Shown here: one piece after another, positions 5,132 through 57,109 of the stretch | How the letters are laid out: each line of letters begins with the position of its first letter | Position numbering within the stretch: position 1 is the first letter of the stretch | Notes under the pieces: model-generated | Databases searched by the model: none | Told to the model about the DNA's origin: nothing | Seen by the model: only the letters and a program-made list of their open reading frames with translations | Made by a program: the position numbers and the translations under genes | Assembly (NCBI GenBank): GCA_035554795.1 | Contig: DATMHT010000404.1 | Span: forward strand, 1-59,163 | Source of the DNA: Gemmatimonadaceae bacterium | Lineage (GTDB): Bacteria > Gemmatimonadota > Gemmatimonadetes > Gemmatimonadales > Gemmatimonadaceae | Reading direction: 5' to 3' | DNA length: 59,163 bases

Positions 5132-5266
5132 GCGGTAAGTGGGGCCGGTGAGCGGGAGGCGGTACGCGGGAAGCGCAAGCCGTGAATCGCGGCGGGGCCG
5201 GGATCCCGACACGGGCGCCGGCCCCTCGTAGGTTCTCGCTTACCGCTCACCGCCTCCCGCTTACCG
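5130..5266. repeat. imperfect long palindromic element between convergent genes
   Basis: CGGTGAGCGGGAGGCGGT (5146-5163) pairs 17/18 with ACCGCCTCCCGCTTACCG (5249-5266). Inner 8-bp hairpin GGGGCCGG (5194-5201) / CCGGCCCC (5218-5225). The arms are built from GGTAAG/GGTGAG/GGGAGG units. The right arm overlaps the terC 3' end. Confidence 0.7.
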
Positions 5267-6238: not shown

Positions 6239-6334
6239 GGGCGGAAGTTAGCGCGCCCGGCGGCGCCACGTCAGCGAGGCTCGCCGCGCCGCGCCGGTCG
6301 CGCTGATCGCGCGCGGGCGCGCTACATTCCCGGC

Positions 6335-6808: not shown

Positions 6809-7065
6809 CGGAGCTGTCGCGGCCTAACGACGACTGTCGCGCGGAAGCGACGACCCGGCCCCGCCGCGGTCGCGCCGGCGGCGCGGACAATCTGTCCATT
6901 TTCGGCGCGTTCTCCCGGGGAGCGAGAGGGGCGTAGCACCGAGGGCTCTCGTCGCGTGGCCGCCGCACGCTCCTTGCCCCTCGCCCCCCCGCCGTGCCGT
7001 CGTCCGGCGTGACGCCGCCCTCCCGCGTCGCTGCCGACCCGCCGATACCCCCCAGAGTCGTCTCC

Positions 7066-10000: not shown

Positions 10001-10068
10001 GCGCGGACGAGGACTCCGACGCCTCGACGCTGCTCGGCGGCGGCAGCATCACGGTGCACGCGCGGTAG
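7066..10068 (+). CDS. secreted multidomain DNA/RNA non-specific endonuclease lipoprotein (LTD + 2x Big_2 + Endonuclease_NS + 2x PKD + C-terminal domain)
   Basis: Lipobox LALVSC after the ATG at 7066. Lamin-tail-like segment (VITEFMSDP...GEWFELYN). Two Big_2-like repeats ([32 protein letters not shown]). Catalytic DRGHMVQSE...N motif of the Serratia/NucA family. Two PKD repeats ([11 protein letters not shown]...YTATVTVTD; TVTWDDG...[13 protein letters not shown]). Confidence 0.9.
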
Positions 10069-42860: not shown

Positions 42861-44444
42861 TTACTGGCAGCTGCGGTTGCTCAGCTTCCCGCTCACCATC
42901 GTGTTGTCGCAGCCCACCACGATGCCCGTCGGGGCAGAGCCCACGTAGACGCCGTAGCCCGAGGCGCCGGACAGGTCGATGGAGTTGTTGTGGAAGACGT
43001 TCCCGTTGCCCCAGCCGCTCGTGATCGCCTCGACCTTGTAGCCGTTCTGCGCGGCCACCTTGCCGGTGTTGTCGGTGATGATCGCGTTGTTGCCGTAGGC
43101 GTTGACCCACGCCGACGCGTTGCCGCTGCTGTAGCCGGTACCGTCGAACGAGTTGCCCTGTACGACCGTGCCGGTGGTGCCGTCCTTCATGTCCACGGCC
43201 TCGACGGTGATGTTCGGACCGAACTGCGACGAGCGGACCGTGTTCGAGTCGCTGCGATCGGGCACGCCGTTCACCCACTGCGAGCTCGTCGTACCGATGT
43301 AGACGCCCTCGCCGTAGCCCGGCGACGAGCGGCCCGTGTTGTAGACGTGCACGCCGTCGATCAGGTTGTGCTTGCTCGTCTCCTTGAGGACGATGCCCTC
43401 CTGACCCAGGTCGTGGACCGTGAGGTGGCGAGCGGTCACGTTGGAGGAGCCGCCCTTGATGCGGATGCCGACGATGCCGTTGGTGACCGTGAAGCCGTCG
43501 AGCGTCACGTTATGGGCGCCGGAGACGATGAGCACCGTCGCGCTGGTCACGCCGCTCGTTCCGCTCAGCACGGCGTTCGACGAGCCGCAGACCACGATCG
43601 GCGCGCTGCTGCTGCCCGACTTGCCGAGCGTGAACGACCCGCCGTAGGTGCCGTCGGCGAGCTTGATAAGGTCGCCGGCCTGCGCGTTGCTGAGCGCCGA
43701 GGCGAGCGCGCTCGCCGAGCTCACCGACACGAGCCGCGAGTAGCTGTACGCCGAGCAGCCGCTGCTCGAGGAAGACGACGTGGACGTCGTCGAGGTCGAC
43801 GTGCTGCTCACCGTGACGAGCGCCGTCCCGCTCTGGCCGCCGCTGCTGGCGGTGATGGTCGCGGTGCCGCCGGCGACGGCGCTGACGACGCCGGACGCGC
43901 TCACCGTCGCGACGGCGGAGTTCGAGGTCGTCCAGCTGAACGACGCGCCGCTGATCGTGTTGCCCGACCCGTCCTTGGCCTGCGCGCTGAGCTGCGAGGT
44001 CTGACCGGCGAGCAGCGACACGCTGCTCGGCGACACGCTCACGGAGGCGACGGTCGCGCTGCTGGTCGTGCCGCCCGGGACGTAGACGTCCGCGGTGTCG
44101 CTCGCCGACTTGTACGACGCGACGATGCGGGCGTGGCCGGCGGCGCGGGCGCGGACGACGCCGCTCGAGCTGACGACGGCGATGGCCGTGTCGGCGCTGT
44201 GCCAGCTGGCCGTGGCGCTATTGCCGGGCGCGCCCGTGACGGTCGCCTTCAGCGTGTCGAGGATGCCGACGGCCAGGGTGTCGTGCTTCGGCGAAACCGT
44301 CACGTCGAGCGTCGTGCTCGACCGCGAGGAGCGGGGCGAGACGGCGTCCGTTGGATTGGTGATGGTATCGCCGGAGCAACCGGCGGAGGCGAGAATACCG
44401 GACGCGGCAATAACCGCGAACATGACCATGCGCGGAAAATGCAT
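42861..44444 (-). CDS. secreted lipoprotein: 2x Big_2 + Ser/Thr linker + right-handed parallel beta-helix (polysaccharide lyase/hydrolase-like)
   Basis: Start ATG 44444 (MHFPRMVMFAVIAASGILASAGC lipobox), preceded by AGAGGAG. Big_2-like repeats (WHSADTAIAVVSSSG, WTTSNSAVATVSASG). Poly-S/T linker. Beta-helix coils (NVTLDGFTVTNG, NVTARHLTVHD, HNLIDGVHVYN). Confidence 0.8.
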   Translation of the reverse strand: MHFPRMVMFAVIAASGILASAGCSGDTITNPTDAVSPRSSRSSTTLDVTVSPKHDTLAVGILDTLKATVTGAPGNSATASWHSADTAIAVVSSSGVVRARAAGHARIVASYKSASDTADVYVPGGTTSSATVASVSVSPSSVSLLAGQTSQLSAQAKDGSGNTISGASFSWTTSNSAVATVSASGVVSAVAGGTATITASSGGQSGTALVTVSSTSTSTTSTSSSSSSGCSAYSYSRLVSVSSASALASALSNAQAGDLIKLADGTYGGSFTLGKSGSSSAPIVVCGSSNAVLSGTSGVTSATVLIVSGAHNVTLDGFTVTNGIVGIRIKGGSSNVTARHLTVHDLGQEGIVLKETSKHNLIDGVHVYNTGRSSPGYGEGVYIGTTSSQWVNGVPDRSDSNTVRSSQFGPNITVEAVDMKDGTTGTVVQGNSFDGTGYSSGNASAWVNAYGNNAIITDNTGKVAAQNGYKVEAITSGWGNGNVFHNNSIDLSGASGYGVYVGSAPTGIVVGCDNTMVSGKLSNRSCQ

Positions 44445-44460
44445 GCGACACTCCTCTGGT

Positions 44461-44592
44461 CCGTTCGGCGGCCCGACTGGCATGGCCGCCTCGCACCAGT
44501 GGAGGACGGCTGTAGCCTCGTAGCTTTGCGTCCCCGGCTTTCGCCGGGTTTGCCTTTGTCGCTGGCCCCCGAGGGGGTGTCGCGATCCTGCC
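44461..44592 (-). promoter_or_regulatory. c-di-GMP-I (GEMM-I) riboswitch, copy 1
   Basis: The minus-strand RNA reads ...GCGACAAAGGCAAACCCGGCGAAAGCCGGGGACGCAAAGCUACGAGGCUAC...GCCAGUCGGGCCGCCGAACGG. This has the GGCAAACC-stem-GAAA-stem-GGGACGCAAAGC core and the 3' segment of GEMM-I. It ends ~17 nt before the ATG at 44444. Boundaries are approximate. Confidence 0.85.
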
Positions 44593-44948
44593 GATCAATT
44601 TGGCCCAATCGACCTTGTCGGCTTCCGAGGGGGTGCATCCCCCACTCAGTCAACGAACGGCTCGAGCCGCTCGTCACGCCGGAGGTCCACGAAGAACGTA
44701 GACAAAATGTCTGGGTCGAACAAGTGCTAATACAACATTTGTTGTTTCTAACGTTAGGCGACGGACCGAATTGTTCTGCAGCTGTCGAGATCGTGCGCCC
44801 GTACTGCCGAGCCCATGGGCGGCCTAACGCTGTGAACTCGTCTCGGCCGCGGCGGCGGAAGGTGGTGCAGGCGCGCGGCCGAAACGGGGCGGGCGCCCGC
44901 CGCGGCAGCGATGCCTAACGGCACCCTGGTCCCGGCCTAACGCCTAAC

Positions 44949-45008
44949 GGGCAGCCTGCCGGGCGGCCTGCCGGGCAGCCTGACGGGCGGCCTGCCGGGC
45001 AGCCAGAC
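44949..45008. repeat. 12-bp tandem repeat x5 (GGGC[A/G]GCCTGCC)
   Basis: GGGCAGCCTGCC GGGCGGCCTGCC GGGCAGCCTGAC GGGCGGCCTGCC GGGCAGCCAGAC. Non-coding, immediately 3' of the epimerase stop (45024, minus strand). Confidence 0.9.
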
Positions 45009-45023
45009 GCTGTCCGATGTCGC

Positions 45024-46031
45024 CTAACGCTGCCGGATGGCGCCGGACGACGCTTCCTCGTGGGTGTCGAGCCAGCGCGCGAAGCGCTCGAGGCCCACCG
45101 CGAGCGGCGTCGAGGGGGAGTAGCCCAGAAGGCGCCCGGCCTTGGAGACGTCGGCCCAGGTCTGCGGCACGTCGCCCGGTTGCGGCGGGAGCGGCTCGAT
45201 GCGCCCCTCGACGTGCAGCGCCGACTCGAGCGCGTCGAGCAGCTCGCGGAGGCTGACCGGGCTGGCGTTGCCGAGGTTGATCACCTCGTAGTCGCTCGCC
45301 CGGTAGTCGACGCTCGCGACGACGCCGCTCACGACGTCGTCGATGTAGGTGTAGTCGCGGCGGGTCGCCGCCGGGTCCCCGTAGACGGGGATCGGCTCTC
45401 CGCGTCGCATCAGCGTCGCGAAGCGGTGGATGGCGAGGTCCGGCCGCTGGCGCGGCCCATACACTGTGAAGAACCGCAGGGCGATGAAGCGGAGCCCGGA
45501 CAGGTGGCTGTAGCTGTGCCCCAGGAGCTCCCCGCTCACCTTCGTCGCGGCGTACGGGCTGATCGGCCTCAGTCCGACGTCGGACTCGCGCCAGGGGACG
45601 TCGGGGTCGACGCCGTACACCGAGCTGGAAGAGGCGAACACGAACTGCGGAATGCGCCGGACGCGCGCCCACTCCAGGAGCACCTGCGTGCCTCTGACGT
45701 TGACGTCCACGTACTCGACCGGGCGGGCGATCGACGGGCGGACTCCGGCGAGCGCGGCGAGGTGCACCACGGCATCGATGTCGTCGGGGAGCGCCGCGAG
45801 CGCGGCGGCGTCGCGCACGTCCCCCTCGATCAGGCGGAACCCCGGGTGTCCTGCGGCCGAGGCGAGGTTCTGCCGCTTGACGCCGGCGTCGTAGAATGGG
45901 TCGAAGTTGTCGATCGCGGTGACGGCCCGTCCCTGCCCGAGCAGCGCGTCGACGACGTGGCTGCCGATGAATCCCGCGCCACCGGTGACGAGAACGTGGC
46001 GCGGCGCGCTGGTGCTCGACGCCTTCGGCAT
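45024..46031 (-). CDS. NAD-dependent sugar-nucleotide epimerase (SDR family; UDP-glucuronate/UDP-glucose 4-epimerase-like)
   Basis: 335 aa. ATG 46031 preceded by GAGGAGGAG. VTGGAGFIGSH Rossmann motif and YAATK catalytic YxxxK. The longer 518-aa ORF upstream is a GC artefact. Confidence 0.88.
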   Translation of the reverse strand: MPKASSTSAPRHVLVTGGAGFIGSHVVDALLGQGRAVTAIDNFDPFYDAGVKRQNLASAAGHPGFRLIEGDVRDAAALAALPDDIDAVVHLAALAGVRPSIARPVEYVDVNVRGTQVLLEWARVRRIPQFVFASSSSVYGVDPDVPWRESDVGLRPISPYAATKVSGELLGHSYSHLSGLRFIALRFFTVYGPRQRPDLAIHRFATLMRRGEPIPVYGDPAATRRDYTYIDDVVSGVVASVDYRASDYEVINLGNASPVSLRELLDALESALHVEGRIEPLPPQPGDVPQTWADVSKAGRLLGYSPSTPLAVGLERFARWLDTHEEASSGAIRQR

Positions 46032-46093
46032 TCGCTCCTCCTCTCTCCGCGGTCCCGCCGATCGTCGAGCTGCCGCGCCTCGCTGCGCGCCGC

Positions 46094-47245
46094 CTAGGGC
46101 GCGGCGCTGGCGTCGGCCCACTGCTCGACCGAGCGCAGGAGCGACGGCACCTGGGCGCGCGACGTGGCGCCGAGCTTGTCGAGCACCTTCTGCGTGTGAT
46201 GACGCGCGGTGTGCGGACTGACCCCGAGTGTGTGCGCGATGTCGGCGTTCGACTTCCCGTGCAGGAGCAGATGCGTGACGTCCACCTCGCGATCGGTGAG
46301 ACCGTAGGTCCGCCGCAGCGCTTCGACCGGCAGCGCCGTCACCGCGGTGGATGCGTCGGCGGGCGAGTCCACGCGCATCAGGCGCTCGAGCGAGACGGCG
46401 ATCGCCGCCGCGCCACCCGGCCCGTCCGGCGCGATCTCGCAGCAGCGGACGCGATAGCGCCCCGTGTCGCTGCGCAGCTCGATCGGCTGCGCGACGAAGT
46501 CGCGCAGGGCGGCGGGACAGTCGCCGCCGCCGCTCAGCGCCGCTGCCTCGCGCATCCGGAATCCCATCGCCGCGCGCCACAGCTCGTTGCGGATGCGGGT
46601 GCGCTGCGGCTCGGCCGCGAGCAGCCGCGCGAGCGCGGCGTTCTCATACAGCACGCTCCCGTCGCGGGCGAAGAGCAGGGTGCCGGCGCTGAGCGCGTCG
46701 AGCAGGCGGGTGAGCGCACGGTGGCTCGGCGCCGCGAACATCCGCTCGCGCGCGCCGGCGACGAACGCCGGCATGACGAGCCGCAGCGTCTCGAGGTGGC
46801 CCCGCGTCTCCGCCGCCGAGCGCGGCCCGTGGTAGTGGCAGGCGAGGCTCGCGTTGACGCCCGGAAGGTCGAGCGCGGCGGTCATGCCGACCGCCTCGTA
46901 GCGCGCGCCGTCCACCGCGACCTCGGAGATCTCGCCGTGACCGGCGCGGCGGCACCAGACGCGTGTGCGCGGCGGCGGCAGGTCGTCGGCGCCCGAGGTC
47001 GGAGACGCCTTCGGCGACTGCACGATGCGGTGCAGCAGCTCGTGGGAGATGCCGTCGCCGAAGGCGCGGACCGCGCGGCCGCACTGGAGGACGAGCACCG
47101 CGTTGGCGGCGTCGGCGAGCCGGGTGAGCGCCGCGGTCGCCGCGCGTCCCCATCGCTCGTCGTCGTCGTGTGCCGCGGCCGAGAGCAGAGCGTCGAGTGC
47201 CGTGGTGAAGCGCTCGCGGCCGTCGGGGGAAAGCGTGAGATCCAT
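46094..47245 (-). CDS. LuxR/GerE-family transcriptional regulator with uncharacterised N-terminal domain (paralogue 1)
   Basis: 383 aa (ATG 47245). C-terminal HTH LTDREVDVTHLLLHGKSNADIAHTLGVSPHTARHHTQKVLDKLG. It shares YEAVGMTA, LLFA..G..LY and GRY.(V/L)RCCEI motifs with the next gene. Confidence 0.8.
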   Translation of the reverse strand: MDLTLSPDGRERFTTALDALLSAAAHDDDERWGRAATAALTRLADAANAVLVLQCGRAVRAFGDGISHELLHRIVQSPKASPTSGADDLPPPRTRVWCRRAGHGEISEVAVDGARYEAVGMTAALDLPGVNASLACHYHGPRSAAETRGHLETLRLVMPAFVAGARERMFAAPSHRALTRLLDALSAGTLLFARDGSVLYENAALARLLAAEPQRTRIRNELWRAAMGFRMREAAALSGGGDCPAALRDFVAQPIELRSDTGRYRVRCCEIAPDGPGGAAAIAVSLERLMRVDSPADASTAVTALPVEALRRTYGLTDREVDVTHLLLHGKSNADIAHTLGVSPHTARHHTQKVLDKLGATSRAQVPSLLRSVEQWADASAAP

Positions 47246-47397
47246 CGTGCGGATCTCCGGGAGCGGGTGGTCCGGCGCGCGTTCCGGCGCCGGTACGTCA
47301 CGCACTGCTGCACGCCGACGACCGGCGACGGTCACCGAGCGGCCCAGCCGATTATAGCGAACTCCGGAGGGGCCGCAAGCCAGGCAGCGGCGGCCCG

Positions 47398-48549
47398 CTA
47401 GGCGTCGCCGGCCCGAGGCGGCGCCAGGTGCGCGTGCAGGACGGCCGGGACCTCGGCGCGCGAGCGCACGCCGAGCTTCTCGAGCACGTGCTCCGTGTGC
47501 CGGCGGGCCGTGAACTCGCTGATGCCGAGCTGGCGCGCCACCTCGGCGTTCGGCTTGCCGGCGAGCAGGAGCCTCGCCACGTCGAGCTCGCGCGTGGTCA
47601 GGCCGTAGCGGGTGCGCAGGGTCGAGGCCGCGCCCTCGAGAGGGTCCGCGGTGCTCCCGATCGTCGCGACCAACTCGATCGTCGTCGCGACGAGCGCCGG
47701 CGGCCCCGGCTCCTCGGGCGGGATCTCGCAGCAGCGCAGCACGTACCGGCCGTGCGTGGTCTCGACGGTGCACGAGTCGGTGGCGAGCGTTCGCTGGTCG
47801 GCGTCGCTCTGCCGCGTCGCCGGACGATCCGCCAGGAAGGTGCGGACGAGCTGCGCCATCTCCTCACGAACGAGGTCCCGGGCGGGGTCTCCGCCGAGGA
47901 GGCGCGTGAGGGCCGTCGTCGCGTAGAGCGGCTCGCCGTTGCCGGCGAAGAGCAGGGCGCTCGCGCCCGATGCCTCGAGCAGGCGCGCGGCGAGTCGCCG
48001 CGTTCCTGCGGCGCTGGTGCGCACGCGCGCCGCGGAGGCGAAGGCTGGAAGGAGGCTTCGCAGGAGCTCGAGGCGGCGTTGCGTCTGAATCGCGTCACGG
48101 TGCGGCGACAGCCGACATACCGCCGTCGCGAACACACCCGGAAGCCCGAGCTCCGCGGTCATCCCGACCGCCTCGTAGGCGGCGCCGTCCGCCGCGACGC
48201 CGGCGACCGCCTCCAGGGCGCGGTGGGGCACGTGCTGGGTCGTCGTCGCGGGGCGACACCAGGCGTAGGCGCGGTAGGGCGAGTGGCCGATGTCGTCGGG
48301 GATCGCCGGCGCGTTGGGCGCGCGCAGCGCGCCGCGGACCATGCCGGCCGAGACGCCGGCCGCGAGGGGCCCGATCGTCTCGCCTCCCTGGAGCACGAGG
48401 GTGACGTCGTCCGCGCCGGTGAGGGACGCCAGGGCGCGAACGACCCCGCGCTCCCACACCTCGAGCGGGGCGCTCAGTGACAGCGCGAACAACGCGGCGA
48501 GAACGTCTCCAATGCTGGAGAGGACGTTAGGCGCGAGCGTGTCGTCCAT
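47398..48549 (-). CDS. LuxR/GerE-family transcriptional regulator (paralogue 2, same 383-aa length)
   Basis: ATG 48549 (MDDTLAP). C-terminal HTH LTTRELDVARLLLAGKPNAEVARQLGISEFTARRHTEHVLEKLG. Confidence 0.8.
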   Translation of the reverse strand: MDDTLAPNVLSSIGDVLAALFALSLSAPLEVWERGVVRALASLTGADDVTLVLQGGETIGPLAAGVSAGMVRGALRAPNAPAIPDDIGHSPYRAYAWCRPATTTQHVPHRALEAVAGVAADGAAYEAVGMTAELGLPGVFATAVCRLSPHRDAIQTQRRLELLRSLLPAFASAARVRTSAAGTRRLAARLLEASGASALLFAGNGEPLYATTALTRLLGGDPARDLVREEMAQLVRTFLADRPATRQSDADQRTLATDSCTVETTHGRYVLRCCEIPPEEPGPPALVATTIELVATIGSTADPLEGAASTLRTRYGLTTRELDVARLLLAGKPNAEVARQLGISEFTARRHTEHVLEKLGVRSRAEVPAVLHAHLAPPRAGDA

Positions 48550-48739
48550 GCGTGGCTCCGTCGGAGCGCGGTGCCTGGCTACGGGCGTCGGTACCGGGGC
48601 GCGGCGATCGCCTAACGGTGGATTCCGGCCGCTCGCGCCTGACGCGGGCACGATTCGCACCGGAACTCGTGAGGCAGATCACCAAAAAAATAGGCGAAAT
48701 GACCAATGGCTCGAATTAAGGGACTCCCATATCGTGACG

Positions 48740-48845
48740 CGCGTCACAAACCCTTCTCCGAGAAGAGCACCCCGGCTGCGAGGCCGGTCCGCAGAGCCAC
48801 AGGTCTCCGATGCTGGAGACAGCTGGGCCGCCGAAGAGAGTTGAA
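48740..48845 (+). promoter_or_regulatory. structured 5' leader with partial resemblance to the two GEMM-I elements (candidate divergent riboswitch)
   Basis: CACAAACC-hairpin-...CGCAGAGCCACAGG...CAGCUGGGCCGCCGAAG compares with copy 1/2 GGCAAACC-hairpin-GGGACGCAAAGC(U/C)ACGAGG...(A/G)GUCGGG(CC/UU)GCCGAAC. The GNRA loop and the GGGAC are not conserved. Confidence 0.3.
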
Positions 48846-48902
48846 CCGGCGCGTACAACCCTGGTGGCGCCGGCGCCTTCAGCAGTGCGGAGGGATGTCT
48901 CT

Positions 48903-50831
48903 ATGAGGAAACGGTATGTGGTAGCCGCGACCGTGGCAGCGGTCGCGGTCGCGACGGCGTGTTCCGACTCGCCGACCGAGCTGGCGAAGCAGCGGACGCG
49001 GGCGCCGTCGGCCCCCTCGGCCAACAACGTGGCCGGCGCGGCGTTCACCTCCGTGAACGAGACCGTGGACGGCACCGGTCACTGCGCCAACGGGAACCCG
49101 AACAACAACTGCAACATCTACGACGGCAAGCAGTACGTCTGGCTCGACGGCGGGCCTGCCGCGGCGTTCCTCGGCGGCGACGGCGACTACTTCTTCGCCG
49201 TGCTCTCGCCGTCGGGCCAGGCCAACCCGAACGATGCCGCCACCGTTCCGGACGGCGGCAGCGGCTCGCCGACGAACCTGTCGGACGACTTCGACGCCTA
49301 CACGAATCGCACGTTCAGCGTGTCGGGCAACTCGGTCTCCTACAGCGGGACCCACGACTTCGACAGCGGCAAGATCCGGCTGATGCCGTACTCGAACACG
49401 CTCAATCCGGGCGGCGTCTACATCCTGGCCGTCTGCTCGCTCGCCGACGGCTACCCGGTCGCGTCGAGCAAGTGCAAGTACGACGCGTTCAAGGTCAACG
49501 TCGAGGGCGGTGGGACCGAGGCCGCGGCTCCGACGATCCTCAAGGACGCGAACGGCGCGTACGACAACACGTACGCGTGGACGATCCAGAAGGCCGTGGA
49601 CAAGACGCTCGTCAAGCAGGTCGGGGGGAGCGCGACGTTCAACTACACCGTCACCGTGACGCACGACGGCGGCACGGTCAGCAACGTCGCGGTCAGCGGA
49701 ACGATCCAGGTCTTCAACCCCAACGCCAGCGCCATCACCGGCGCCGACGTCACCGATCAGCTCAGCGACGGCACGACCTGCACCGTCACCGGCGGCGCGA
49801 ACGTGACGCTGGCGTCGGGCGCCAACAACTTCGCCTACTCGTGCAGCCTGAGCGCCCTCCCGTCCGGGTCGCTCGACAACACGGCGACGGTGACGTGGCC
49901 CGCGCAGACGCTCACCGAGGGCGCACTCGCCGCCGGGTCGGACAACTTCATGGTCGCGGGCATCACGTTCACCGCGAACGTGATCGACGAGACGATCTCC
50001 GTCACCGACACCTATGCCGGTACCCTGGGAACCGTGTCGGTCGGCGACGCCAACCCGAGTACGTTCACGTACTCGCGGACGATCGCGATTCCGGCATCGA
50101 GCTGCGTGAGCTACGGCAACACGGCGACCTTCACGACGAACGACACCGGCGCCACCGGCTCGGCCAGCCAGACGGTCACGGTCTGCGGTCCCGCCCGGAC
50201 CGGCGCGCTGACGATCGGCTTCTGGAAAGGCCCGAACGGCAACAGCCTGATTCAGAACTACTGCATGGGCAGCCCGTCGCTGGCGACGTACCTCTCCAGC
50301 CTCGGCTCGGGCTCCGGTCCGTTCGCGAACGCCGCCGGCAAGACGTGCAGCCAGCTCGTCACCTACGTCAACGGCATCATCAATGGCGCCTCGGCGACCA
50401 ACATGAACACGATGCTCAAGGCGCAGATGCTGGCCACCGCGCTCGACGTCTACTTCAGCTCGGCCGGTTACAGCACGACCGCGTACGGGTCGGGCAAGAA
50501 CCAGGTCAAGCCGCCGTCGAGCTTCCTGCCGAATGGCGGGATCGGGACGTTCACCATGGATCTCACGGCGATCTGCCCGATGGTGGACAACACGACGACC
50601 GGCACCGCGACGTGCCAGGGCGGCACGCCGTCCACCAACGGCTTCGCGTCGGGCGCGCTGCCGTCGGCGGCGATGACCATCAACAGCATCCTGAACTTCG
50701 CCGCGACCACGCCGTCGCCGTTCAACGGCTCGACGTCGAACAGCATCTGGTACGCGGGCGACCGCACGAAGGAAGAGATCCTGAAGAACGTGTTCGATCA
50801 GATCAACAACCAGGACGCCTTCGCGCCGTAA
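48903..50831 (+). CDS. secreted lipoprotein of unknown function (Ig-like/DUF11-like repeats, Cys-rich)
   Basis: ATG 48903. Lipobox AVATAC. Beta-rich, Thr/Ser/Asn-rich repeats (ATFNYTVTVTHDGGTVSNVAVSGTIQVFNP...). No catalytic motif recognised. Confidence 0.7.
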   Translation: MRKRYVVAATVAAVAVATACSDSPTELAKQRTRAPSAPSANNVAGAAFTSVNETVDGTGHCANGNPNNNCNIYDGKQYVWLDGGPAAAFLGGDGDYFFAVLSPSGQANPNDAATVPDGGSGSPTNLSDDFDAYTNRTFSVSGNSVSYSGTHDFDSGKIRLMPYSNTLNPGGVYILAVCSLADGYPVASSKCKYDAFKVNVEGGGTEAAAPTILKDANGAYDNTYAWTIQKAVDKTLVKQVGGSATFNYTVTVTHDGGTVSNVAVSGTIQVFNPNASAITGADVTDQLSDGTTCTVTGGANVTLASGANNFAYSCSLSALPSGSLDNTATVTWPAQTLTEGALAAGSDNFMVAGITFTANVIDETISVTDTYAGTLGTVSVGDANPSTFTYSRTIAIPASSCVSYGNTATFTTNDTGATGSASQTVTVCGPARTGALTIGFWKGPNGNSLIQNYCMGSPSLATYLSSLGSGSGPFANAAGKTCSQLVTYVNGIINGASATNMNTMLKAQMLATALDVYFSSAGYSTTAYGSGKNQVKPPSSFLPNGGIGTFTMDLTAICPMVDNTTTGTATCQGGTPSTNGFASGALPSAAMTINSILNFAATTPSPFNGSTSNSIWYAGDRTKEEILKNVFDQINNQDAFAP

Positions 50832-50877
50832 CGGCTTCGAGGCCGCCGTTCGATAGCGGCCGCGAACGAGGCAAGAG

Positions 50878-50907
50878 CTGCGGGGTCCCGTTCGCGGGGC
50901 CCCGCAG
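50878..50907 (+). terminator. 13-bp stem / UUCG tetraloop hairpin after the 48903 gene
   Basis: CTGCGGGGTCCCG TTCG CGGGGCCCCGCAG (one G-U pair), 47 nt after the stop at 50831. Confidence 0.65.
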
Positions 50908-50941
50908 TGCTTCCCGGGCCGGACGTTGCTCGAAAGGAAAG

Positions 50942-50977
50942 CGAGTGGGGTGGGGAACGCGTTCCCCACCCCGCTCG
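50942..50977 (-). terminator. G-tract/C-tract palindrome after the protease gene
   Basis: CGAGTGGGGTGGGGAACG / CGTTCCCCACCCCGCTCG is 17/18 complementary with no spacer. It lies 30 nt beyond the protease stop (51007, minus strand). Confidence 0.65.
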
Positions 50978-51006
50978 TCACTTCGCATAACCTGGCTCGG
51001 TCCGCG

Positions 51007-52608
51007 TCAGAGCCTCTTCACGGTAACCGTCGCGGTCCGCGTGTTCTGCTGACCGGCCGTGTCGGTGACCGTCAGCGTCACCGTGTAGCTGCCGGCCGCC
51101 TTGTAAGTGTACAGGAGCTTGGTGAGCGAGCTGCCCGTCGCCGCGGAGGTGCCGTCGCCGAAGTCCCAGGTGTACGACGCGATGCCGGCGTCGTCGGTGG
51201 AACCCGACGCGTCGAACTTGCACTTGCCGCGCGCGCAGCTCCACGTGAAGCTCGCCACCGGCGGCTGGTCCACCGTCGCCGGCGGAGGCGGCGATGTCAC
51301 CACTGTCGTCGTGTCCGGCGGCGGCGTGGTGGTGTCGGGGGCGGGCTGCATCGTGCCCGACGTGATGCTCGAGTACAGGAGCAGGTTCGCGGTGCCCGAC
51401 GGTACGGACGACAGCACGTTCGGCGTCGCGCCGCCGACGATCGCCGACGTCACCTGCGCCGGCGTCGCGCCCGGGTTGGCCGAGAGATACAGCGCGGCCA
51501 CGCCGGCGACGTGCGGCGACGCCATGGAGGTGCCGCCCATGACCGTGGAGCTCGTGTCGTCCACGTAGGAGGCGGAGCGGATCGCCGAACCGGGGGCGAA
51601 GAGGTCCACGCACGGGCCGAAGTTCGAGTACCCGGACATGCCGTCGCCATTCCACGACGCGCCGACCGTGAGCGCCTCGGGCGTGCTCGCGGGTGAGTAG
51701 TTGCAGGCGTCGGTCGAGCTGTTCCCGGCGGCGACGGCGTACACGACGCCCGCCTTGATCGAGCTCTGGACGGCCGAGTTGAGGGTCGAGGAGACGCTGC
51801 CCGTCAAGGACATGTTGGCGACGGCGGGGAGCGTGCGATGCTGCGTGACCCAGTCGATGCCGGCGATGATGCCGCTGTACGAGCCGTAGCCCGTGCAGTC
51901 GAGCACCCGGACCGAGTAGAGCGTGGCGCCCTTCGCCACGCCGTAGCTCTTCCCGCCGACGATGCCGGCGACGTGCGTGCCGTGGCCGCTGCAGTCGCTC
52001 GTGCCGTTGCCGTCGTTGATCGCCGAGTAGGCGCCGAGCGCGCGCCCGCCGAACTCCGCGTGCGTCGCGCGGATCCCCGAATCGAGGATGTAGACGCTCA
52101 CGCGGGCGCCCGTGGTGGCGTAGCCGTAGCTCTTGTCCAGCGGCAGCGTGCGCTGGTCGAGGCGATCGAGCCCCCAGTCGGGCGAGCTCTGCACGTCGCT
52201 CGCGCGCACGCGCTGGTCGGCCTCGACGCCCGCGACCATCGGGTTCCGCGCCAGCGCGTCCACCGCCGCGGCGGGGAAGTGCGCGGCGAAGCCCTTGATC
52301 GCGCTCGTGTAGGTGTAGCGCAGCGTGCCGCCCAGGGTGGTCGCCAACTCGCGTGCCCGCGCCGGCACGTCGCGTACCGAATCGCGGAAGACGACGATAT
52401 ACTCGTCGGGGATGACGTCGCTGGAGGAGCCCGCCGCGACCGCCGAACGGCGAAGCGTCGGCGCGGCCGCGGGGGCCGGTGGCGCGCTGGCGTCCTGACA
52501 GGCGGCGAGCGTGGCGAGGGTGCAGAGGGCGAGCGCGGTGCGCACACGCGCGCGGCGGTCGGGACGCGCGCCAACGAGCGCGGTCCCGCGACGGGTCGTC
52601 GCGGACAT
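51007..52608 (-). CDS. secreted subtilisin-like serine protease (S8, proteinase K-like) with I9 propeptide and C-terminal PKD domain
   Basis: Lipobox LATLAAC. Catalytic triad VYILDSGI (Asp), GHGTHVAG (His), GGTSMASPHVAG (Ser). C-terminal PKD (YTWDFGDGTSA...YTVTLTVTD). Confidence 0.92.
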   Translation of the reverse strand: MSATTRRGTALVGARPDRRARVRTALALCTLATLAACQDASAPPAPAAAPTLRRSAVAAGSSSDVIPDEYIVVFRDSVRDVPARARELATTLGGTLRYTYTSAIKGFAAHFPAAAVDALARNPMVAGVEADQRVRASDVQSSPDWGLDRLDQRTLPLDKSYGYATTGARVSVYILDSGIRATHAEFGGRALGAYSAINDGNGTSDCSGHGTHVAGIVGGKSYGVAKGATLYSVRVLDCTGYGSYSGIIAGIDWVTQHRTLPAVANMSLTGSVSSTLNSAVQSSIKAGVVYAVAAGNSSTDACNYSPASTPEALTVGASWNGDGMSGYSNFGPCVDLFAPGSAIRSASYVDDTSSTVMGGTSMASPHVAGVAALYLSANPGATPAQVTSAIVGGATPNVLSSVPSGTANLLLYSSITSGTMQPAPDTTTPPPDTTTVVTSPPPPATVDQPPVASFTWSCARGKCKFDASGSTDDAGIASYTWDFGDGTSAATGSSLTKLLYTYKAAGSYTVTLTVTDTAGQQNTRTATVTVKRL

Positions 52609-52620
52609 GGGGCATCTCCG

Positions 52621-52775
52621 TCGGTTCGTTCGGCAACCCGACCGGCGTGGCCGTCGCGCGGCATCGTCGCCGTGCGATCGTGCGGTAGCCTCGTGGCTTT
52701 GCGTCCCCGCCTTTCGACGGGTTTGCCCTTGTCGCGACCCCGTGCCCGCGTGGGCGGTGGAGGTGCGATCCTGCC
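52621..52775 (-). promoter_or_regulatory. c-di-GMP-I (GEMM-I) riboswitch, copy 2
   Basis: The minus-strand RNA reads ...GCGACAAGGGCAAACCCGUCGAAAGGCGGGGACGCAAAGCCACGAGGCUAC...GCCGGUCGGGUUGCCGAACGAACC, followed by GGAG and the AUG at 52608. The tetraloop stem differs from copy 1 by a G-C to U-G change. Boundaries are approximate. Confidence 0.85.
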
Positions 52776-52883: not shown

Positions 52884-55007
<2,124 letters not shown>

Positions 55008-55984: not shown

Positions 55985-56878
55985 TCAGACCGTGCGCATC
56001 GGCCCGGACGGCCGCCGCGTTCCGAGCACCTTGCCGCCCACCTCGGCGCGCGAGTGGACGTTCAGCTTGAGCAGGACGCTCTCGGTGTGATGGCGCGCCG
56101 TGTGGGGACTGATCTCGAGCGTCTTCGCGATCTCGCCGTTGGAGTGTCCCTGCGCCAGCAGGAGCGCGACACCCGCCTCGCAGGCGGTGAGGTTGAATCG
56201 GTTGGCGAGCGCGAGCGGTGAGGGCAGCGACAGGGTGAGTCGCTCGAGCGTGACGATCACCGCGTGCTCGGCGCCGGGGAGCGCGTCCCCCAGCGGCGTC
56301 GCGTGCATCCGGTAGCGCGCGGTGGCGGTGCGCGTCTCGCGAGTCGCGGGACCGCATCCGGTCGCGGCGCCACCCGTGCCGCCACCATCGTCGTGGGCGC
56401 CGTCGCGGTGGGAGTCGCTGCCGTGGGCGCCGTTGCCGTGGTCTCGCGTGCCGGCCGGCGCGTGCCGCGGCAGCGAGAGGGCGAAGTAGCGCATCTCGCG
56501 GAGCAGCGCGCCGCGGTCGTCGTCCTCCAGCAGCGTGCGCTCGAGCGACGGGTTGCGGTAGAACATGCTCCCGGCGTCGTCGACGAGCAGCACTCCTTCG
56601 GTGAGGAAGTCGAGGACGCGCAGGAGCGCGCGGCCGGGCCGCTCGAGCTCCAGTGCCGGTAGGCGCACGGCGTCGGAGTGTGGCGTCAGCTCGATCGCGC
56701 GATCGGTGAAGCGACGGTCGGCGTGCTGGACGTGGTGGTGGAGCGACGCGAGCGAGTCGGTGAGCGACGGGCGGAGCACGGATTGCCTCCACTGAGCAGC
56801 GCCGCCGGGCGCCGTCGGCGTGGCCATGCGGGACGTCCATGACGCGACCGCTGCCACGATCGTGATCACGCGGCCCAT
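55985..56878 (-). CDS. LuxR/GerE-family transcriptional regulator (shorter third paralogue)
   Basis: C-terminal HTH LTACEAGVALLLAQGHSNGEIAKTLEISPHTARHHTESVLLKLN. The central VLLVDDAGSMFYRNPSLERTLL resembles LLFARDGSVLYENAALARLL of paralogue 1. Start ATG 56878 or 56827. Confidence 0.75.
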   Translation of the reverse strand: MGRVITIVAAVASWTSRMATPTAPGGAAQWRQSVLRPSLTDSLASLHHHVQHADRRFTDRAIELTPHSDAVRLPALELERPGRALLRVLDFLTEGVLLVDDAGSMFYRNPSLERTLLEDDDRGALLREMRYFALSLPRHAPAGTRDHGNGAHGSDSHRDGAHDDGGGTGGAATGCGPATRETRTATARYRMHATPLGDALPGAEHAVIVTLERLTLSLPSPLALANRFNLTACEAGVALLLAQGHSNGEIAKTLEISPHTARHHTESVLLKLNVHSRAEVGGKVLGTRRPSGPMRTV

Positions 56879-57109
56879 GGCCGCGGTCTGGCCGCGCGCA
56901 GGCGTCGTCGCCACGCCGGGGGCCAGTGCGGGTTGGATATAGTGCGCCAGATCACAATGGACAAGAGGGGGTCTCCCTATGGCGAGGGCCGAACCGGCGA
57001 GCTCTCGGAGACTTTCTAGGCAATTTTGCCCATCCGGGTCGGCGGACGACTGGCTATCTAGGCGCTGCCGTCCTCGCTTGCTCGCCGTCTTCGATCCCCG
57101 GGGTGCCAG

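What the first reader, a model, noticed from the sequence alone, without database searches (positions are those of the whole stretch)
42861..52608. c-di-GMP / LuxR-wired 'secreted enzyme' neighbourhood adjacent to the polysaccharide locus
**Contents, immediately downstream of the 29.5-kb polysaccharide operon.**
- A riboswitch-controlled Big_2 + beta-helix lipoprotein, the fold used by polysaccharide lyases and depolymerases.
- A sugar-nucleotide epimerase.
- Two tandem LuxR-type regulators.
- An unknown Ig-like-repeat lipoprotein.
- A riboswitch-controlled S8 protease with a PKD domain.

**Inference.** This is a matrix or cell-surface remodelling module whose enzymes respond directly to c-di-GMP at the RNA level. 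The polysaccharide operon itself has a separate long leader.

**Open question.** Whether c-di-GMP turns these genes on or off cannot be read from the sequence.
Basis: inference. Interest (0 to 1): 0.7.

Follow-up and report, generated by a model that had tools for sequence, protein, structure and literature searches.

The report
Three riboswitch-controlled secreted proteins beside EPS operon
A soil Gemmatimonadaceae-like bacterium puts a polysaccharide lyase, a protease and an unknown surface protein, all next to a polysaccharide-synthesis operon, each under its own cyclic-dinucleotide-sensing RNA switch; this is a new example of a known kind of control, not a new kind.

Summary
All six genes are present. 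There are three GEMM-I riboswitch aptamers, not two (Rfam 69.6, 60.2 and 46.8 bits). The third sits upstream of the "unknown Ig-like lipoprotein".

- **Genes.** The beta-helix protein is a PL31 alginate-lyase homologue (PDB 6KFN, E 8e-39). The epimerase resembles UDP-glucuronate 4-epimerases. The protease is proteinase-K-like. The LuxR pair are PAS plus HTH regulators of the VqmA/EL222 type.
- **RS1 and RS3.** Both carry the canonical c-di-GMP contacts. They are not the "GGC" variant that Rfam's best-scoring model suggests. They belong to a soil-metagenome subfamily that recurrently precedes Big_2 lipoproteins (28 of 46) and I9-S8 proteases (14 of 46).
- **Control.** There is no terminator. 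The start codon lies 18-19 nt after the aptamer, so control is translational.
- **Direction.** Flank covariation and folding favour an OFF switch, in which an upstream anti-Shine-Dalgarno pairs once P1 closes. This is inference.
- **RS2.** It carries A at ligand position 20, the cGAMP/bispecific signature. Its orthologue elsewhere has G.

"Matrix remodelling" is plausible but untested, and no evidence ties the LuxR proteins to c-di-GMP. Verdict: new member of a known kind, moderate interest.

The parts
42861..44444 (-). Gene 1: exported (lipobox-like SAG|C) protein of 527 aa. It has two Big_2 domains and a C-terminal right-handed beta-helix homologous to the PL31 alginate lyase PsAly.
   Evidence: Pfam Big_2 E 1.3e-17 and a weak Chondroitinase_B hit. 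PDB 6KFN E 7.8e-39 over aa 236-504. 6KFN is PsAly, PL31, EC 4.2.2.3 (PMC8618178).
44445..44462 (-). RS1 expression platform: the 3' strand of the P1 extension (GGACC, 44462-44458), the Shine-Dalgarno GAGGAG (44456-44451) and GUGUCGC (44451-44445), directly before the ATG at 44444.
   Evidence: Sequence read directly. The pairing partners lie upstream at 44583-44571.
44463..44563 (-). RS1: GEMM-I aptamer with G20 (44554), A47 and C92, the canonical c-di-GMP contacts.
   Evidence: Rfam 69.6 bits, E 2e-14. Best-scoring model RF03167, but A rather than G at the variant-defining position.
44564..44592 (-). RS1 5' leader: conserved motif GGCAGGATCGC (44592-44582), upstream anti-SD GCGACAC-CC-CCUC (44583-44571) and the G-run (44570-44564). 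The G-run forms either the 5' hairpin or the P1 extension.
   Evidence: The motif and hairpin are conserved in about 50 related leaders. Complementarity to 44456-44445.
45024..46031 (-). Gene 2: NAD-dependent SDR sugar-nucleotide epimerase, most like UDP-glucuronate 4-epimerases. GGAGFIG at aa 17, YAATK at aa 160.
   Evidence: Pfam Epimerase E 5e-56. PDB 5U4Q E 1e-70, Bacillus cereus UDP-GlcA 4-epimerase 6ZL6/6ZLA E 6e-60, MoeE5 E 5e-49. Motifs.
46094..47245 (-). Gene 3: LuxR/GerE-HTH one-component regulator with an N-terminal sensor region of about 300 aa. Paralogue of gene 4.
   Evidence: GerE E 4e-12. 38% identity to gene 4 over the full length.
47398..48549 (-). Gene 4: LuxR/GerE-HTH regulator with a PAS/GAF-like module, a PAS domain and an HTH. 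Transcribed divergently from RS2 and gene 5.
   Evidence: GerE E 4e-14. AlphaFold2 pLDDT 76. Foldseek top hits EL222 and VqmA, probability 1.0. Only 4 relatives at E<=1e-10.
48754..48840 (+). RS2: GEMM-I aptamer (Rfam 48756-48835) with a P1 extension UUCUC (48754-48758) / GAGAG (48836-48840). A at position 20 (48766), A47 (48793), G48 (48794), C92 (48831).
   Evidence: Rfam RF01051 46.8 bits, gathering score 35, E 4.8e-6. The orthologue in L207 has G at position 20.
48841..48902 (+). RS2 spacer: GC hairpin CCGGCGC (48846-48852) / GCGCCGG (48867-48873) without a U tract, and the Shine-Dalgarno GGAGGG (48889-48894).
   Evidence: Sequence read directly. No terminator-like site on this strand.
48903..50831 (+). 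Gene 5: exported (ATA|C) 642-aa protein of a large uncharacterised family. It has a Cys-rich N-terminal domain, tandem Ig-like domains and a C-terminal helical domain.
   Evidence: No Pfam, NCBIfam or PDB sequence match. More than 1300 homologues. AlphaFold2 pLDDT 74. Only generic Ig-fold matches.
51007..52608 (-). Gene 6: lipoprotein (LAA|C) subtilase of the proteinase K/aqualysin type, with an I9 propeptide, an S8 domain (D176, H209, N296, S361) and a C-terminal PKD domain.
   Evidence: Pfam. PDB aqualysin 4DZT E 5e-103. Catalytic motifs DSG (176), HGTH (209), AAGN (293) and GTSMA (359).
52609..52627 (-). RS3 expression platform: the 3' strand of the P1 extension (GAACC, 52627-52623) and the Shine-Dalgarno GGAG (52619-52616) within GGAGAUGC (52619-52612). 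ATG at 52608.
   Evidence: Sequence read directly. Pairing analysis.
52628..52736 (-). RS3: GEMM-I aptamer with G20 (52727), A47 and C92.
   Evidence: Rfam 60.2 bits, E 9.6e-12. Orthologous riboswitches precede the S8 orthologues in L020 (63.4 bits) and L206 (60.5 bits).
52737..52775 (-). RS3 5' leader: GGCAGGATCGC (52775-52765), anti-SD GCACCUCC (52766-52759), an inner hairpin (52755-52744) and GGGGUCG (52741-52735).

Best explanation
**What it is.** The segment comes from a soil bacterium related to Gemmatimonadaceae. It holds three separately transcribed genes for exported proteins, each preceded by its own GEMM-I cyclic-dinucleotide riboswitch:
- a PL31-type polysaccharide lyase;
- a proteinase-K-type subtilase;
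- a 642-aa Ig-repeat protein of unknown function.

They flank a UDP-glucuronate-4-epimerase-like gene and two PAS-LuxR regulators. The whole set abuts the 3' end of a 29.5-kb Wzx/Wzy- and ABC-type polysaccharide operon.

**RS1 (lyase) and RS3 (protease).**
- They are canonical c-di-GMP aptamers.
- They act on translation. There is no terminator, and the Shine-Dalgarno sits 8-12 nt after the aptamer.
- Helix P1 is prolonged by the flanking sequences.
- A pyrimidine-rich anti-Shine-Dalgarno lies upstream of the aptamer, held in a small 5' hairpin.

**Inferred mechanism.** Without ligand, the 5' hairpin holds the anti-SD and ribosomes can load. When c-di-GMP binds, the extended P1 forms and strips the hairpin's 3' arm. 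The freed anti-SD then pairs with the Shine-Dalgarno as a continuation of P1, and translation stops. On this reading, lyase and protease are made at low c-di-GMP (motile or dispersing state) and shut off at high c-di-GMP (matrix-building state).

**RS2 (gene 5).** It is a diverged aptamer with a G20A change and a different, longer platform. Its ligand (c-di-GMP, 3'3'-cGAMP or both) and its direction are open.

**Shown versus inferred.**
- Shown: the aptamers, the gene identities, the recurrence of the riboswitch-gene pairs, and the flank covariation.
- Inferred: the OFF direction, and that the enzymes act on the cell's own matrix.
For: - **Aptamers.** All three exceed Rfam gathering scores. 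The canonical contacts are read from the same alignment.
- **Recurrence.** The same aptamer type with the same 17-26 nt spacing to a start codon was found on soil contigs. Of 46 downstream proteins, 28 carry Big_2, 14 carry I9 (11 with S8 detected) and 41 have a lipobox-like signal. S8 orthologues in L020 and L206 keep the riboswitch.
- **No terminator or sigma-70 promoter pattern** in the leaders.
- **P1 extension covaries between subclasses**: GGGUCG/CGAACCC, GGGAGC/GCUCUC, GGGGUG(A)CG/CGCACCCC and GGGAGGG/CCCUCCC.
- **Flank pairing.** Cognate 5'/3' flanks pair better than shuffled partners: -28.1 vs -25.6 kcal/mol, 11.4 vs 8.5 inter-flank pairs, permutation p about 2e-4.
- **SD accessibility.** With P1 enforced, the unpaired probability of the SD falls from 0.45 to 0.19 (n=35). 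It drops by more than 0.3 in 15 of 35 and rises by more than 0.3 in none. In the window, RS1 goes 0.82 to 0.20 and RS3 goes 0.63 to 0.21.
- **RS1 pairing.** A 7-bp GCGACAC/GUGUCGC helix plus a 4-bp CCUC/GAGG helix covers the SD up to the AUG. The 7-bp part lies outside the 5' hairpin, so it is not a by-product of that hairpin.
- **Gene identities.**
- **Precedent.** In C. difficile, a class I riboswitch represses the protease gene zmpI at high c-di-GMP (PMC6366702).
Against: - **Both-states problem.** The 3' strand of the P1 extension is itself complementary to the SD region in many members, for example AACCC...GGGUU. That is the classic layout of an ON switch. Nearest-neighbour folding shows the SD substantially paired in both states for several members, such as L020.
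- **Weak window signal.** The window's own flanks rank only 16th and 29th of 36 in the cognate-partner test.
- **No experimental data.** The runs labelled RNA-Seq behaved like DNA.
- **Own-EPS link rests on adjacency only.** The PL31 catalytic domain was not found under this riboswitch type on other contigs; only the Big_2 parts matched.
- **Taxonomy is indirect.** Most metagenome contigs have no taxon. The Gemmatimonadota assignment rests on L005 and L020.
Confidence: 0.5

Rival explanations
1. The parts are the same, but RS1 and RS3 are translational ON switches. The segment just 3' of P1 (c) is the anti-SD. Without ligand it forms a local hairpin with the Shine-Dalgarno. Ligand-stabilised P1 plus its extension captures c and frees the ribosome-binding site. 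The upstream hairpin only serves to keep the 5' strand of the extension busy in the absence of ligand. Lyase and protease would then be made at high c-di-GMP, for instance to trim or process the matrix while it is being built, as with AlgL, PslG or PelA.
For: - Local c:d hairpins that occlude the SD are frequent and vary together with c. Examples are AACCC/GGGUU, ACCCC/GGGGU, CUCUC/GAGAG and CCUC/GAGG.
- Folded alone, the 3' flank leaves the SD less than 25% unpaired in about a third of members.
- Class I switches can be ON, for example Bc2-cap in B. thuringiensis (PMC6366702).
Against: - In the window's own RS1 and RS3 the c:d hairpin is weak: E -1.8 and -0.5 kcal/mol, with the SD 0.82 and 0.63 unpaired.
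- The upstream anti-SD complementarity would be counter-productive in an ON switch. It is nonetheless widespread, and in RS1 it extends 7 bp beyond what the 5' hairpin explains.
- c:d complementarity can arise as a by-product of a:b, b:c and a:d pairing.
Confidence: 0.3
2. The three proteins are not a remodelling kit for the adjacent EPS. They are ordinary surface-anchored foraging or adhesion proteins: a lyase for plant or algal polyuronates, a protease for soil proteins, and an adhesin. Their translation is tied to the attached-versus-free lifestyle through c-di-GMP. The position next to the EPS operon is incidental.
For: - The same riboswitch type precedes many different Big_2 lipoproteins and S8 proteases on contigs with other neighbours.
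- In relatives, the S8 and gene 5 pair occurs without an adjacent EPS operon in the loci seen (L204, L206).
- PL31 PsAly and aqualysin/proteinase K are scavenging exoenzymes.
- The organism is common in soil and rhizosphere metagenomes.
Against: - The lyase gene ends 100 bp from the EPS operon.
- It sits beside a UDP-glucuronate-4-epimerase-like gene that would supply a uronic-acid sugar.
- Many EPS systems encode a dedicated lyase or hydrolase (general knowledge of alginate, Pel and Psl systems).
Confidence: 0.4
3. RS2 no longer senses c-di-GMP selectively. Its G20A change makes it a 3'3'-cGAMP-selective or bispecific (GEMM-Ib-like) switch. The locus would then integrate two cyclic dinucleotides.
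For: - RS2 has A where the consensus and its orthologue in L207 have G.
- G20 contacts one guanine of c-di-GMP. Natural cGAMP riboswitches carry A there.
- The Vc2 G20A mutant binds both ligands, cGAMP at 120 nM and c-di-GMP at 53 nM (PMC6140456).
- The A is present in all four independent assemblies of this organism.
Against: - A20 alone does not give selectivity. G20A RNAs still bind c-di-GMP through a protonated adenine.
- No cGAMP synthase (Hypr-GGDEF or CD-NTase) is visible in the window.
- RS2 also has other core changes (C6G, A48G, an altered P2 internal loop). It could instead be a weakened or decaying aptamer.
- Validated cGAMP riboswitches are so far concentrated in Geobacter and relatives (PMC8835794).
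Confidence: 0.25

Closest known systems
Clostridioides difficile class I c-di-GMP riboswitch upstream of zmpI (PPEP-1), with class II riboswitches upstream of its substrates CD2831 and CD3246
   Same: A secreted protease and cell-surface proteins are each placed under their own c-di-GMP riboswitch. The protease is repressed at high c-di-GMP (PMC6366702). In the window, a protease and a neighbouring Ig-repeat surface protein each have a switch. The gene 5 / S8 convergent pair recurs in 10 of 63 genome loci.
   Different: - A different protease class: S8 serine protease versus M34 metalloprotease.
- The C. difficile switches act by transcription termination, whereas here control is translational.
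- Both switches here are class I.
- No evidence that gene 5 protein is a substrate.
- A diderm soil bacterium, not a Firmicute.
Vibrio cholerae Vc2 / Vc1 (GEMM-I, RF01051)
   Same: RS1 and RS3 share the fold and the same ligand contacts, G20, A47 and C92.
   Different: - High-GC sequences with a long variable insert in P3.
- A conserved 5' motif, GGCAGGATCGC.
- An upstream hairpin and a P1 extension.
- Different regulated genes.
Rfam RF03167 c-di-GMP-I-GGC variant
   Same: It is the best-scoring Rfam model for RS1, RS3 and their relatives.
   Different: The model consensus has G at the position equivalent to A47 (GACGC-G-AA). The window sequences have the parental A (GACGC-A-AA). They are therefore not the variant. 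The meaning of the name "GGC" is from my recollection of Weinberg et al. 2017, which could not be read here.
Geobacter GEMM-Ib 3'3'-cGAMP riboswitches (e.g. Gs1761, Gm0970)
   Same: RS2 has A at the position equivalent to Vc2 G20, within the same overall fold.
   Different: - A different phylum.
- Selectivity untested.
- RS2's orthologue has G.
- Further core differences are present.
- No cGAMP synthase is seen in the window.
PsAly, PL31 alginate lyase of Paenibacillus sp. FPU-7 (PDB 6KFN)
   Same: The beta-helix catalytic domain aligns over about 270 residues at E 7.8e-39.
   Different: The window protein adds a lipoprotein-type signal and two Big_2 domains. Its substrate is unknown, and catalytic residues were not checked.
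VqmA (Vibrio) and EL222 (Erythrobacter): PAS-LuxR one-component regulators
   Same: A PAS sensor fused to a GerE/LuxR HTH. These are the top Foldseek matches.
   Different: The window proteins have an extra N-terminal PAS/GAF-like module and no sequence similarity outside the HTH. Their ligand is unknown. They do not match the VpsT c-di-GMP motif.

Membership tests
c-di-GMP-I / GEMM-I riboswitch (Rfam clan CL00126) | Covariance-model score at or above the curated gathering score | tested here: met
   RS1 69.6 bits (gathering 59), RS3 60.2 (59), RS2 46.8 (35).
c-di-GMP-I / GEMM-I riboswitch (Rfam clan CL00126) | Ligand-contact nucleotides G20, A47 and C92 (Vc2 numbering) | tested here: met
   Met for RS1 (G at 44554) and RS3 (G at 52727), read from the cmscan alignments. 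The roles of these positions are from PMC6140456. RS2 fails at position 20 (A at 48766); see the GEMM-Ib rows.
c-di-GMP-I / GEMM-I riboswitch (Rfam clan CL00126) | Sense-strand position in the 5' UTR of a gene, conserved with that gene in relatives | tested here: met
   18-19 nt (RS1, RS3) and 67 nt (RS2) upstream of start codons. Conserved with S8 in L020 and L206, and with gene 5 in L207.
c-di-GMP-I / GEMM-I riboswitch (Rfam clan CL00126) | Binds c-di-GMP and changes expression | not testable with these tools
   Needs in-line probing or ITC, and reporter assays.
c-di-GMP-I-GGC variant (RF03167) | G instead of A at the position equivalent to A47 | tested here: not met
   The model consensus reads CGC-G-AA. 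RS1, RS3, L020 and L206 read CGC-A-AA, a mismatch column in the alignments.
GEMM-Ib (3'3'-cGAMP riboswitch) | A at the position equivalent to G20 | tested here: met
   RS2 reads GAAG-A-GC where the consensus reads AAa-G-GC. The L207 orthologue has G.
GEMM-Ib (3'3'-cGAMP riboswitch) | Selective binding of cGAMP over c-di-GMP | not testable with these tools
   G20A alone gives bispecific binding in Vc2.
GEMM-Ib (3'3'-cGAMP riboswitch) | A cGAMP synthase (Hypr-GGDEF or DncV-like) in the same genome | tested here: inconclusive
   No GGDEF or CD-NTase domain was found among the ORFs scanned in the 59-kb window. The rest of the genome is not available.
Polysaccharide lyase family 31 | Sequence homology of the beta-helix domain to a characterised PL31 member | tested here: met
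   6KFN (PsAly) E 7.8e-39, aa 236-504 against 3-277.
Polysaccharide lyase family 31 | Conserved catalytic residues and lyase activity | not tested
   The catalytic residues of PsAly were not looked up. Activity needs an assay.
Subtilase S8A, proteinase K subfamily | Asp/His/Ser triad with the oxyanion Asn, an I9 propeptide, and homology to proteinase K or aqualysin | tested here: met
   DSG at 176, HGTH at 209, AAGN at 293, GTSMA at 359. I9 and S8 by Pfam. 4DZT E 5e-103.
UDP-glucuronate 4-epimerase (extended SDR) | GxxGxxG and YxxxK motifs, with closest homology to characterised UDP-GlcA 4-epimerases | tested here: met
   GGAGFIG and YAATK. 6ZL6/6ZLA E 6e-60 and MoeE5 E 5e-49. Substrate specificity itself is not testable here. 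The top hit 5U4Q is deposited as a dTDP-glucose dehydratase.
c-di-GMP-binding LuxR/CsgD regulators (VpsT type) | W[F/L/M][T/S]R c-di-GMP-binding motif in a REC-like domain | tested here: not met
   No match in either LuxR protein. The sensor domains are PAS-like, not REC.

The most novel reading that the evidence does not exclude
**Core claim.** The locus is a two-messenger, opposing-logic surface switch.
- The protease (RS3) and the lyase (RS1) are repressed by c-di-GMP through an unusual upstream anti-SD platform.
- The neighbouring Ig-repeat surface protein is controlled by a G20A aptamer (RS2) that has shifted towards 3'3'-cGAMP or dual recognition.
- That surface protein belongs to a family of more than 1300 members with no annotation. 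Across three phyla it is repeatedly paired convergently with an S8 protease, and it would be the protease's substrate or partner.

**What would follow.** This would extend cGAMP-type riboswitch signalling beyond Geobacter. It would also give the first functional handle on the gene 5 family.
Probability: 0.12. Interest if true: 0.75.

Novelty: new member of a known kind. Interest (0 to 1): 0.45.

Why it matters
- **An unstudied phylum.** Gemmatimonadota are abundant in soils but almost unstudied genetically. Here the c-di-GMP regulon can be read directly from RNA switches. It consists largely of surface lipoproteins (Big_2 proteins, S8 proteases, a PL31 lyase) rather than motility genes.
- **Candidate effectors.** The locus offers concrete candidates for how such bacteria build and dismantle a matrix next to a large EPS operon.
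- **A testable RNA mechanism.** It offers a compact mechanism: an upstream anti-SD released by P1 extension.
- **A natural specificity pair.** A G20 aptamer and its G20A orthologue are available for studying ligand specificity.
- **A lead on an unknown family.** It gives a starting point for a large unannotated family of exported proteins (gene 5) that often travels with an S8 protease.

None of this overturns current understanding. It extends it.

Tried and rejected
1. **The Rfam label "c-di-GMP-I-GGC" for RS1 and RS3: rejected.** The variant-defining G is not present.
2. **Full-leader MFE and partition folding, with two P1 pairs enforced or forbidden.** Bound and free ensembles were nearly identical, so this was uninformative. 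I replaced it with flank-only and P1-mimic folding plus a partner-permutation test.
3. **Expression evidence.** Runs labelled RNA-Seq that contain the locus gave flat depth of about 1-5x over genes and spacers alike. They are probably DNA, so they give no transcription start, termination or expression information.
4. **Function of gene 5.** Pfam, NCBIfam and relaxed Pfam found nothing. A PDB profile search found nothing. AlphaFold2 plus Foldseek gave only generic Ig, macroglobulin-domain and RbmA-like matches at TM below 0.2.
5. **Is gene 5 generally riboswitch-controlled? No.** No GEMM-I hit was found upstream in 16 genome loci by Rfam, in 79 loci by a permissive pattern, or in the Gemmatimonadota loci L005, L010 and L020 at E<=1. 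Only L207 has one.
6. **Sigma-70 promoters and intrinsic terminators in the leaders: none.**
7. **CGTTAGGC as a LuxR/GerE operator.** It occurs 11 times against 1.2 expected. It contains TAG/TAA, so it is excluded from coding frames in a 72% GC genome. It is also common in related contigs, including inside genes. I did not use it as evidence.
8. **Papers not held.** The primary papers on the GGC variant and on cGAMP riboswitch selectivity (Weinberg 2017, Kellenberger 2015, Ren 2015) could not be read.

Full report
**Source and setting.** The window is about 72% G+C. Identical gene products occur on soil-metagenome contigs. The stretch is found nearly intact in at least 20 soil or rhizosphere runs from at least 8 studies. 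The best genome-level relative of gene 5 is a Gemmatimonadaceae MAG at 66% identity. I therefore treat the organism as a soil member of Gemmatimonadota, by inference.

**The observation.** Every item in the finding is present.
- Gene calls made from codon-position GC and start-site context coincide with independent calls on public contigs of 335, 383, 383 and 642 aa.
- The + strand from about 13.2 to 42.76 kb is a polysaccharide operon. It encodes an initiating sugar transferase, a Wzz/GNVR-ATPase co-polymerase kinase, a Wzt-type ABC ATPase, many GT2 and GT4 enzymes, PIG-L and Polysacc_deac_1 deacetylases, a Wzy_C polymerase/ligase, WecG and FkbM/SAM methyltransferases.
- Its last gene ends at 42758. 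Gene 1 ends at 42861 on the other strand, so the two are convergent.

**Three riboswitches, not two.** Rfam at gathering thresholds finds three members of the GEMM-I clan.
- RS1, 44563-44463(-): 69.6 bits.
- RS3, 52736-52628(-): 60.2 bits.
- RS2, 48756-48835(+): 46.8 bits against a threshold of 35.

RS2 lies 67 nt upstream of gene 5, the "unknown Ig-like lipoprotein". All three exported proteins of the segment are therefore switch-controlled. RS3 and its leader lie beyond the finding's end coordinate.

**Which ligand.**
- RS1 and RS3 score best against RF03167 (c-di-GMP-I-GGC). The alignment shows the parental A (CGC-A-AAGC) where that model has G (CGC-G-AAgC). With G at position 20 and C at position 92, they carry the canonical c-di-GMP contacts (roles of G20 and C92 from PMC6140456). 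That "GGC" names positions 20, 47 and 92 is my recollection, because the source paper was not available.
- RS2 differs. It reads GAAG-A-GC, with A at position 20 (48766), and also has G at position 48 and an altered P2 internal loop.
- Natural cGAMP riboswitches carry A at this position. The Vc2 G20A mutant binds c-di-GMP (53 nM) and cGAMP (120 nM) alike.
- An orthologous aptamer with the same unusual P2 sits 65 nt upstream of a 66%-identical gene 5 homologue on a forest-soil contig (L207, 47.4 bits). It has G at position 20.
- The A is therefore a derived change. It is present in all four assemblies of this organism. Whether it alters specificity cannot be decided here.

**What the genes are.**
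- **Gene 1.** A signal peptide ending in Cys, two Big_2 domains, and a beta-helix that aligns to the PL31 alginate lyase PsAly (6KFN) at E 7.8e-39 over about 270 residues.
- **Gene 2.** An extended SDR with GGAGFIG and YAATK. Its nearest structures include Bacillus cereus UDP-glucuronate 4-epimerase (E 6e-60) and MoeE5. Lyases cleave only uronate-containing polymers, so a uronate epimerase next door is a coherent but circumstantial link.
- **Gene 6.** A proteinase-K/aqualysin-type subtilase (4DZT, E 5e-103) with an I9 propeptide, an intact D/H/N/S set and a PKD domain.
- **Genes 3 and 4.** Paralogues, 38% identical over their full length, with only four relatives at E<=1e-10. An AlphaFold2 model (pLDDT 76) shows a PAS/GAF-like module, a PAS domain and a GerE HTH. 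Its best structural matches are EL222 and VqmA. Neither protein has the VpsT-type c-di-GMP motif. A shorter third paralogue lies at about 55985-57100(-). A homologue sits divergently next to a riboswitch-controlled S8 gene on contig L134.
- **Gene 5.** It belongs to a family of more than 1300 proteins (55-70% identity among the top 120) in Actinomycetota, Chloroflexota and Gemmatimonadota. None is annotated. The model (pLDDT 74) shows a Cys-rich N-terminal domain, tandem Ig-like domains and a helical C-terminal domain. Structure search gives only generic Ig-type matches, and sequence searches against Pfam, NCBIfam and PDB give nothing.

**Is the riboswitch-gene pairing more than chance?** Yes.
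- About 50 of them share the window's leader architecture. The order is the motif CGGCAGGATCGC, a short hairpin, the aptamer, and a start codon 17-26 nt after GCCGAA.
- Of 46 downstream proteins in this subfamily, 28 contain Big_2, 14 contain an I9 propeptide (11 with S8 detected), 7 contain PKD and 3 contain a beta-helix. A lipobox-like signal is present in 41 of 46.
- The S8 orthologues in L020 and L206 keep the switch.
- By contrast, gene 5 homologues are generally not switch-controlled. L207 is the one exception found.
- A convergent gene 5 / S8 pair recurs in 10 of 63 genome loci across three phyla, and in L206.

**How RS1 and RS3 probably work.** There is no room or pattern for a terminator. 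The SD lies 8-12 nt after the aptamer, so control is translational.

Across the subfamily, four segments recur:

| Segment | Position | Character |
|---|---|---|
| a | 5' arm of the upstream hairpin | Pyrimidine-rich |
| b | 3' arm of that hairpin, abutting P1 | Purine-rich |
| c | Immediately after GCCGAA | Pairs with b |
| d | Downstream of c | The Shine-Dalgarno |

- b pairs with c as an extension of P1. The pairing covaries between subclasses: GGGUCG/CGAACCC, GGGAGC/GCUCUC, GGGGUG(A)CG/CGCACCCC and GGGAGGG/CCCUCCC.
- a is complementary to d. c is often complementary to d as well.
- Cognate 5' and 3' flanks pair better than non-cognate combinations: -28.1 vs -25.6 kcal/mol, 11.4 vs 8.5 inter-flank pairs, permutation p about 2e-4.
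- When the P1 core is enforced in a mimic construct, the flanks form one long helix (b:c continued by a:d). The unpaired probability of the SD then falls from 0.45 to 0.19 on average. It never rises by more than 0.3.
- In the window, RS1 goes from 0.82 to 0.20 and RS3 from 0.63 to 0.21.
- RS1 shows GCGACAC (44583-44577) pairing with GUGUCGC (44451-44445), and CCUC (44574-44571) pairing with GAGG (44456-44453).
- RS3 shows GCAcCUCC (52766-52759) pairing with GGAGaUGC (52619-52612).

I therefore favour an OFF switch. Ligand-closed P1 releases an upstream anti-SD that then blocks the ribosome site. The ON alternative, with c as the anti-SD, remains viable. c:d hairpins are common, and for several members the SD is predicted to be paired in both states. 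I put OFF at roughly 0.5-0.55 and ON at 0.3.

For RS2, a P1 extension (UUCUC/GAGAG) is visible. The 67-nt spacer has a GC hairpin without a U tract. With only one orthologue available, I give no direction.

**Biological reading.** If OFF is right, lyase and protease are made when c-di-GMP is low. That parallels C. difficile, where a class I switch represses the protease ZmpI while its surface-protein substrates are induced (PMC6366702). That the lyase acts on the neighbouring operon's product is plausible from adjacency and the uronate epimerase, but it is unproven. A foraging role is an equally ordinary reading.

**What failed.** Public runs labelled RNA-Seq that contain the locus behave like DNA, so no expression evidence was obtained.

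**Verdict.** The finding is real and its coordinates need small extensions. Its core inference, RNA-level cyclic-dinucleotide control of exported enzymes, is well supported. The "matrix remodelling" and "LuxR-wired" parts are not established. It is a new member of a known kind. Three features deserve experiment: the upstream anti-SD platform, the G20A aptamer, and the gene 5 / S8 pairing.

Noticed in passing
window 6937-10068 (+): A 1043-aa ORF encoding a large secreted nuclease with LTD, Big_2, Endonuclease_NS and two PKD domains. It lies a few kb upstream of the EPS operon, separated from it by an amidohydrolase gene. It is a candidate eDNA-degrading matrix enzyme. No riboswitch precedes it.
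   Followed up: partly
window 52933-52943 (+), with 52765-52775 (-) and 44582-44592 (-): The 11-mer GGCAGGATCGC occurs exactly three times in the window. My rough estimate is about 0.1 exact copies by chance. Two copies are the conserved leader motif of RS1 and RS3. The third is an inverted copy 157 bp upstream of the RS3 copy, inside the 3' end of the E1 dehydrogenase gene. Whether the motif is RNA, promoter or operator is unknown.
   Followed up: partly
L084-L203 leaders; window about 52829-52803 (-): Many subfamily leaders have an ECF-sigma-like pattern 23-30 nt upstream of GGCAGGATCGC: GTGACC, GTTACC or GGAAACC, then about 16 nt, then CGTC. In the window's RS3, GGTGACGG (52829-52822) and CGTC (52806-52803) fit. 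This suggests a dedicated sigma factor on top of the riboswitch. It was seen by eye only.
   Followed up: no
window 44752-45029, 48525-48617, 6822, 10279, 12793: The 8-mer CGTTAGGC occurs 11 times against 1.2 expected. Six copies lie in the 280 bp between the epimerase gene and the RS1 leader, and one lies upstream of the EPS operon. It contains stop codons and is also frequent in related contigs, so its meaning is unclear.
   Followed up: partly
window 44745-44732 (-): A perfect AT-rich palindrome, ACAACAAATGTTGT, in an otherwise GC-rich spacer about 170 nt upstream of RS1. It is a possible operator.
   Followed up: no
window 55985-57100 (-): A third, shorter LuxR-type paralogue with PAS-like and GerE domains. 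It is 36% identical to gene 3 over 211 aa.
   Followed up: partly
L018, L020, L031, L040, L042, L043, L048, L052, L053, L058, L206: Gene 5 homologues are followed by a convergently oriented S8 protease gene in 10 of 63 genome loci with enough flank, spanning Gemmatimonadota, Actinomycetota and Chloroflexota. The same holds in the close relative L206. This hints at a functional pair.
   Followed up: partly
L135, L140, L186: Some metagenome contigs carry two GEMM-I aptamers of this sequence type. They lie about 170-200 nt apart on the same strand in L135 and L140, possibly in tandem, and about 1 kb apart in L186.
   Followed up: no
L001 (ENA NODE_264), 5186-7929: This public contig repeats gene 5 and the LuxR gene as an inverted copy of itself. 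It looks like a palindromic assembly artefact, not biology.
   Followed up: no
window 5261-6247 (-): A TerC-family membrane protein gene with no yybP-ykoY (Mn2+) riboswitch detected upstream. Such genes often have one in other phyla.
   Followed up: no
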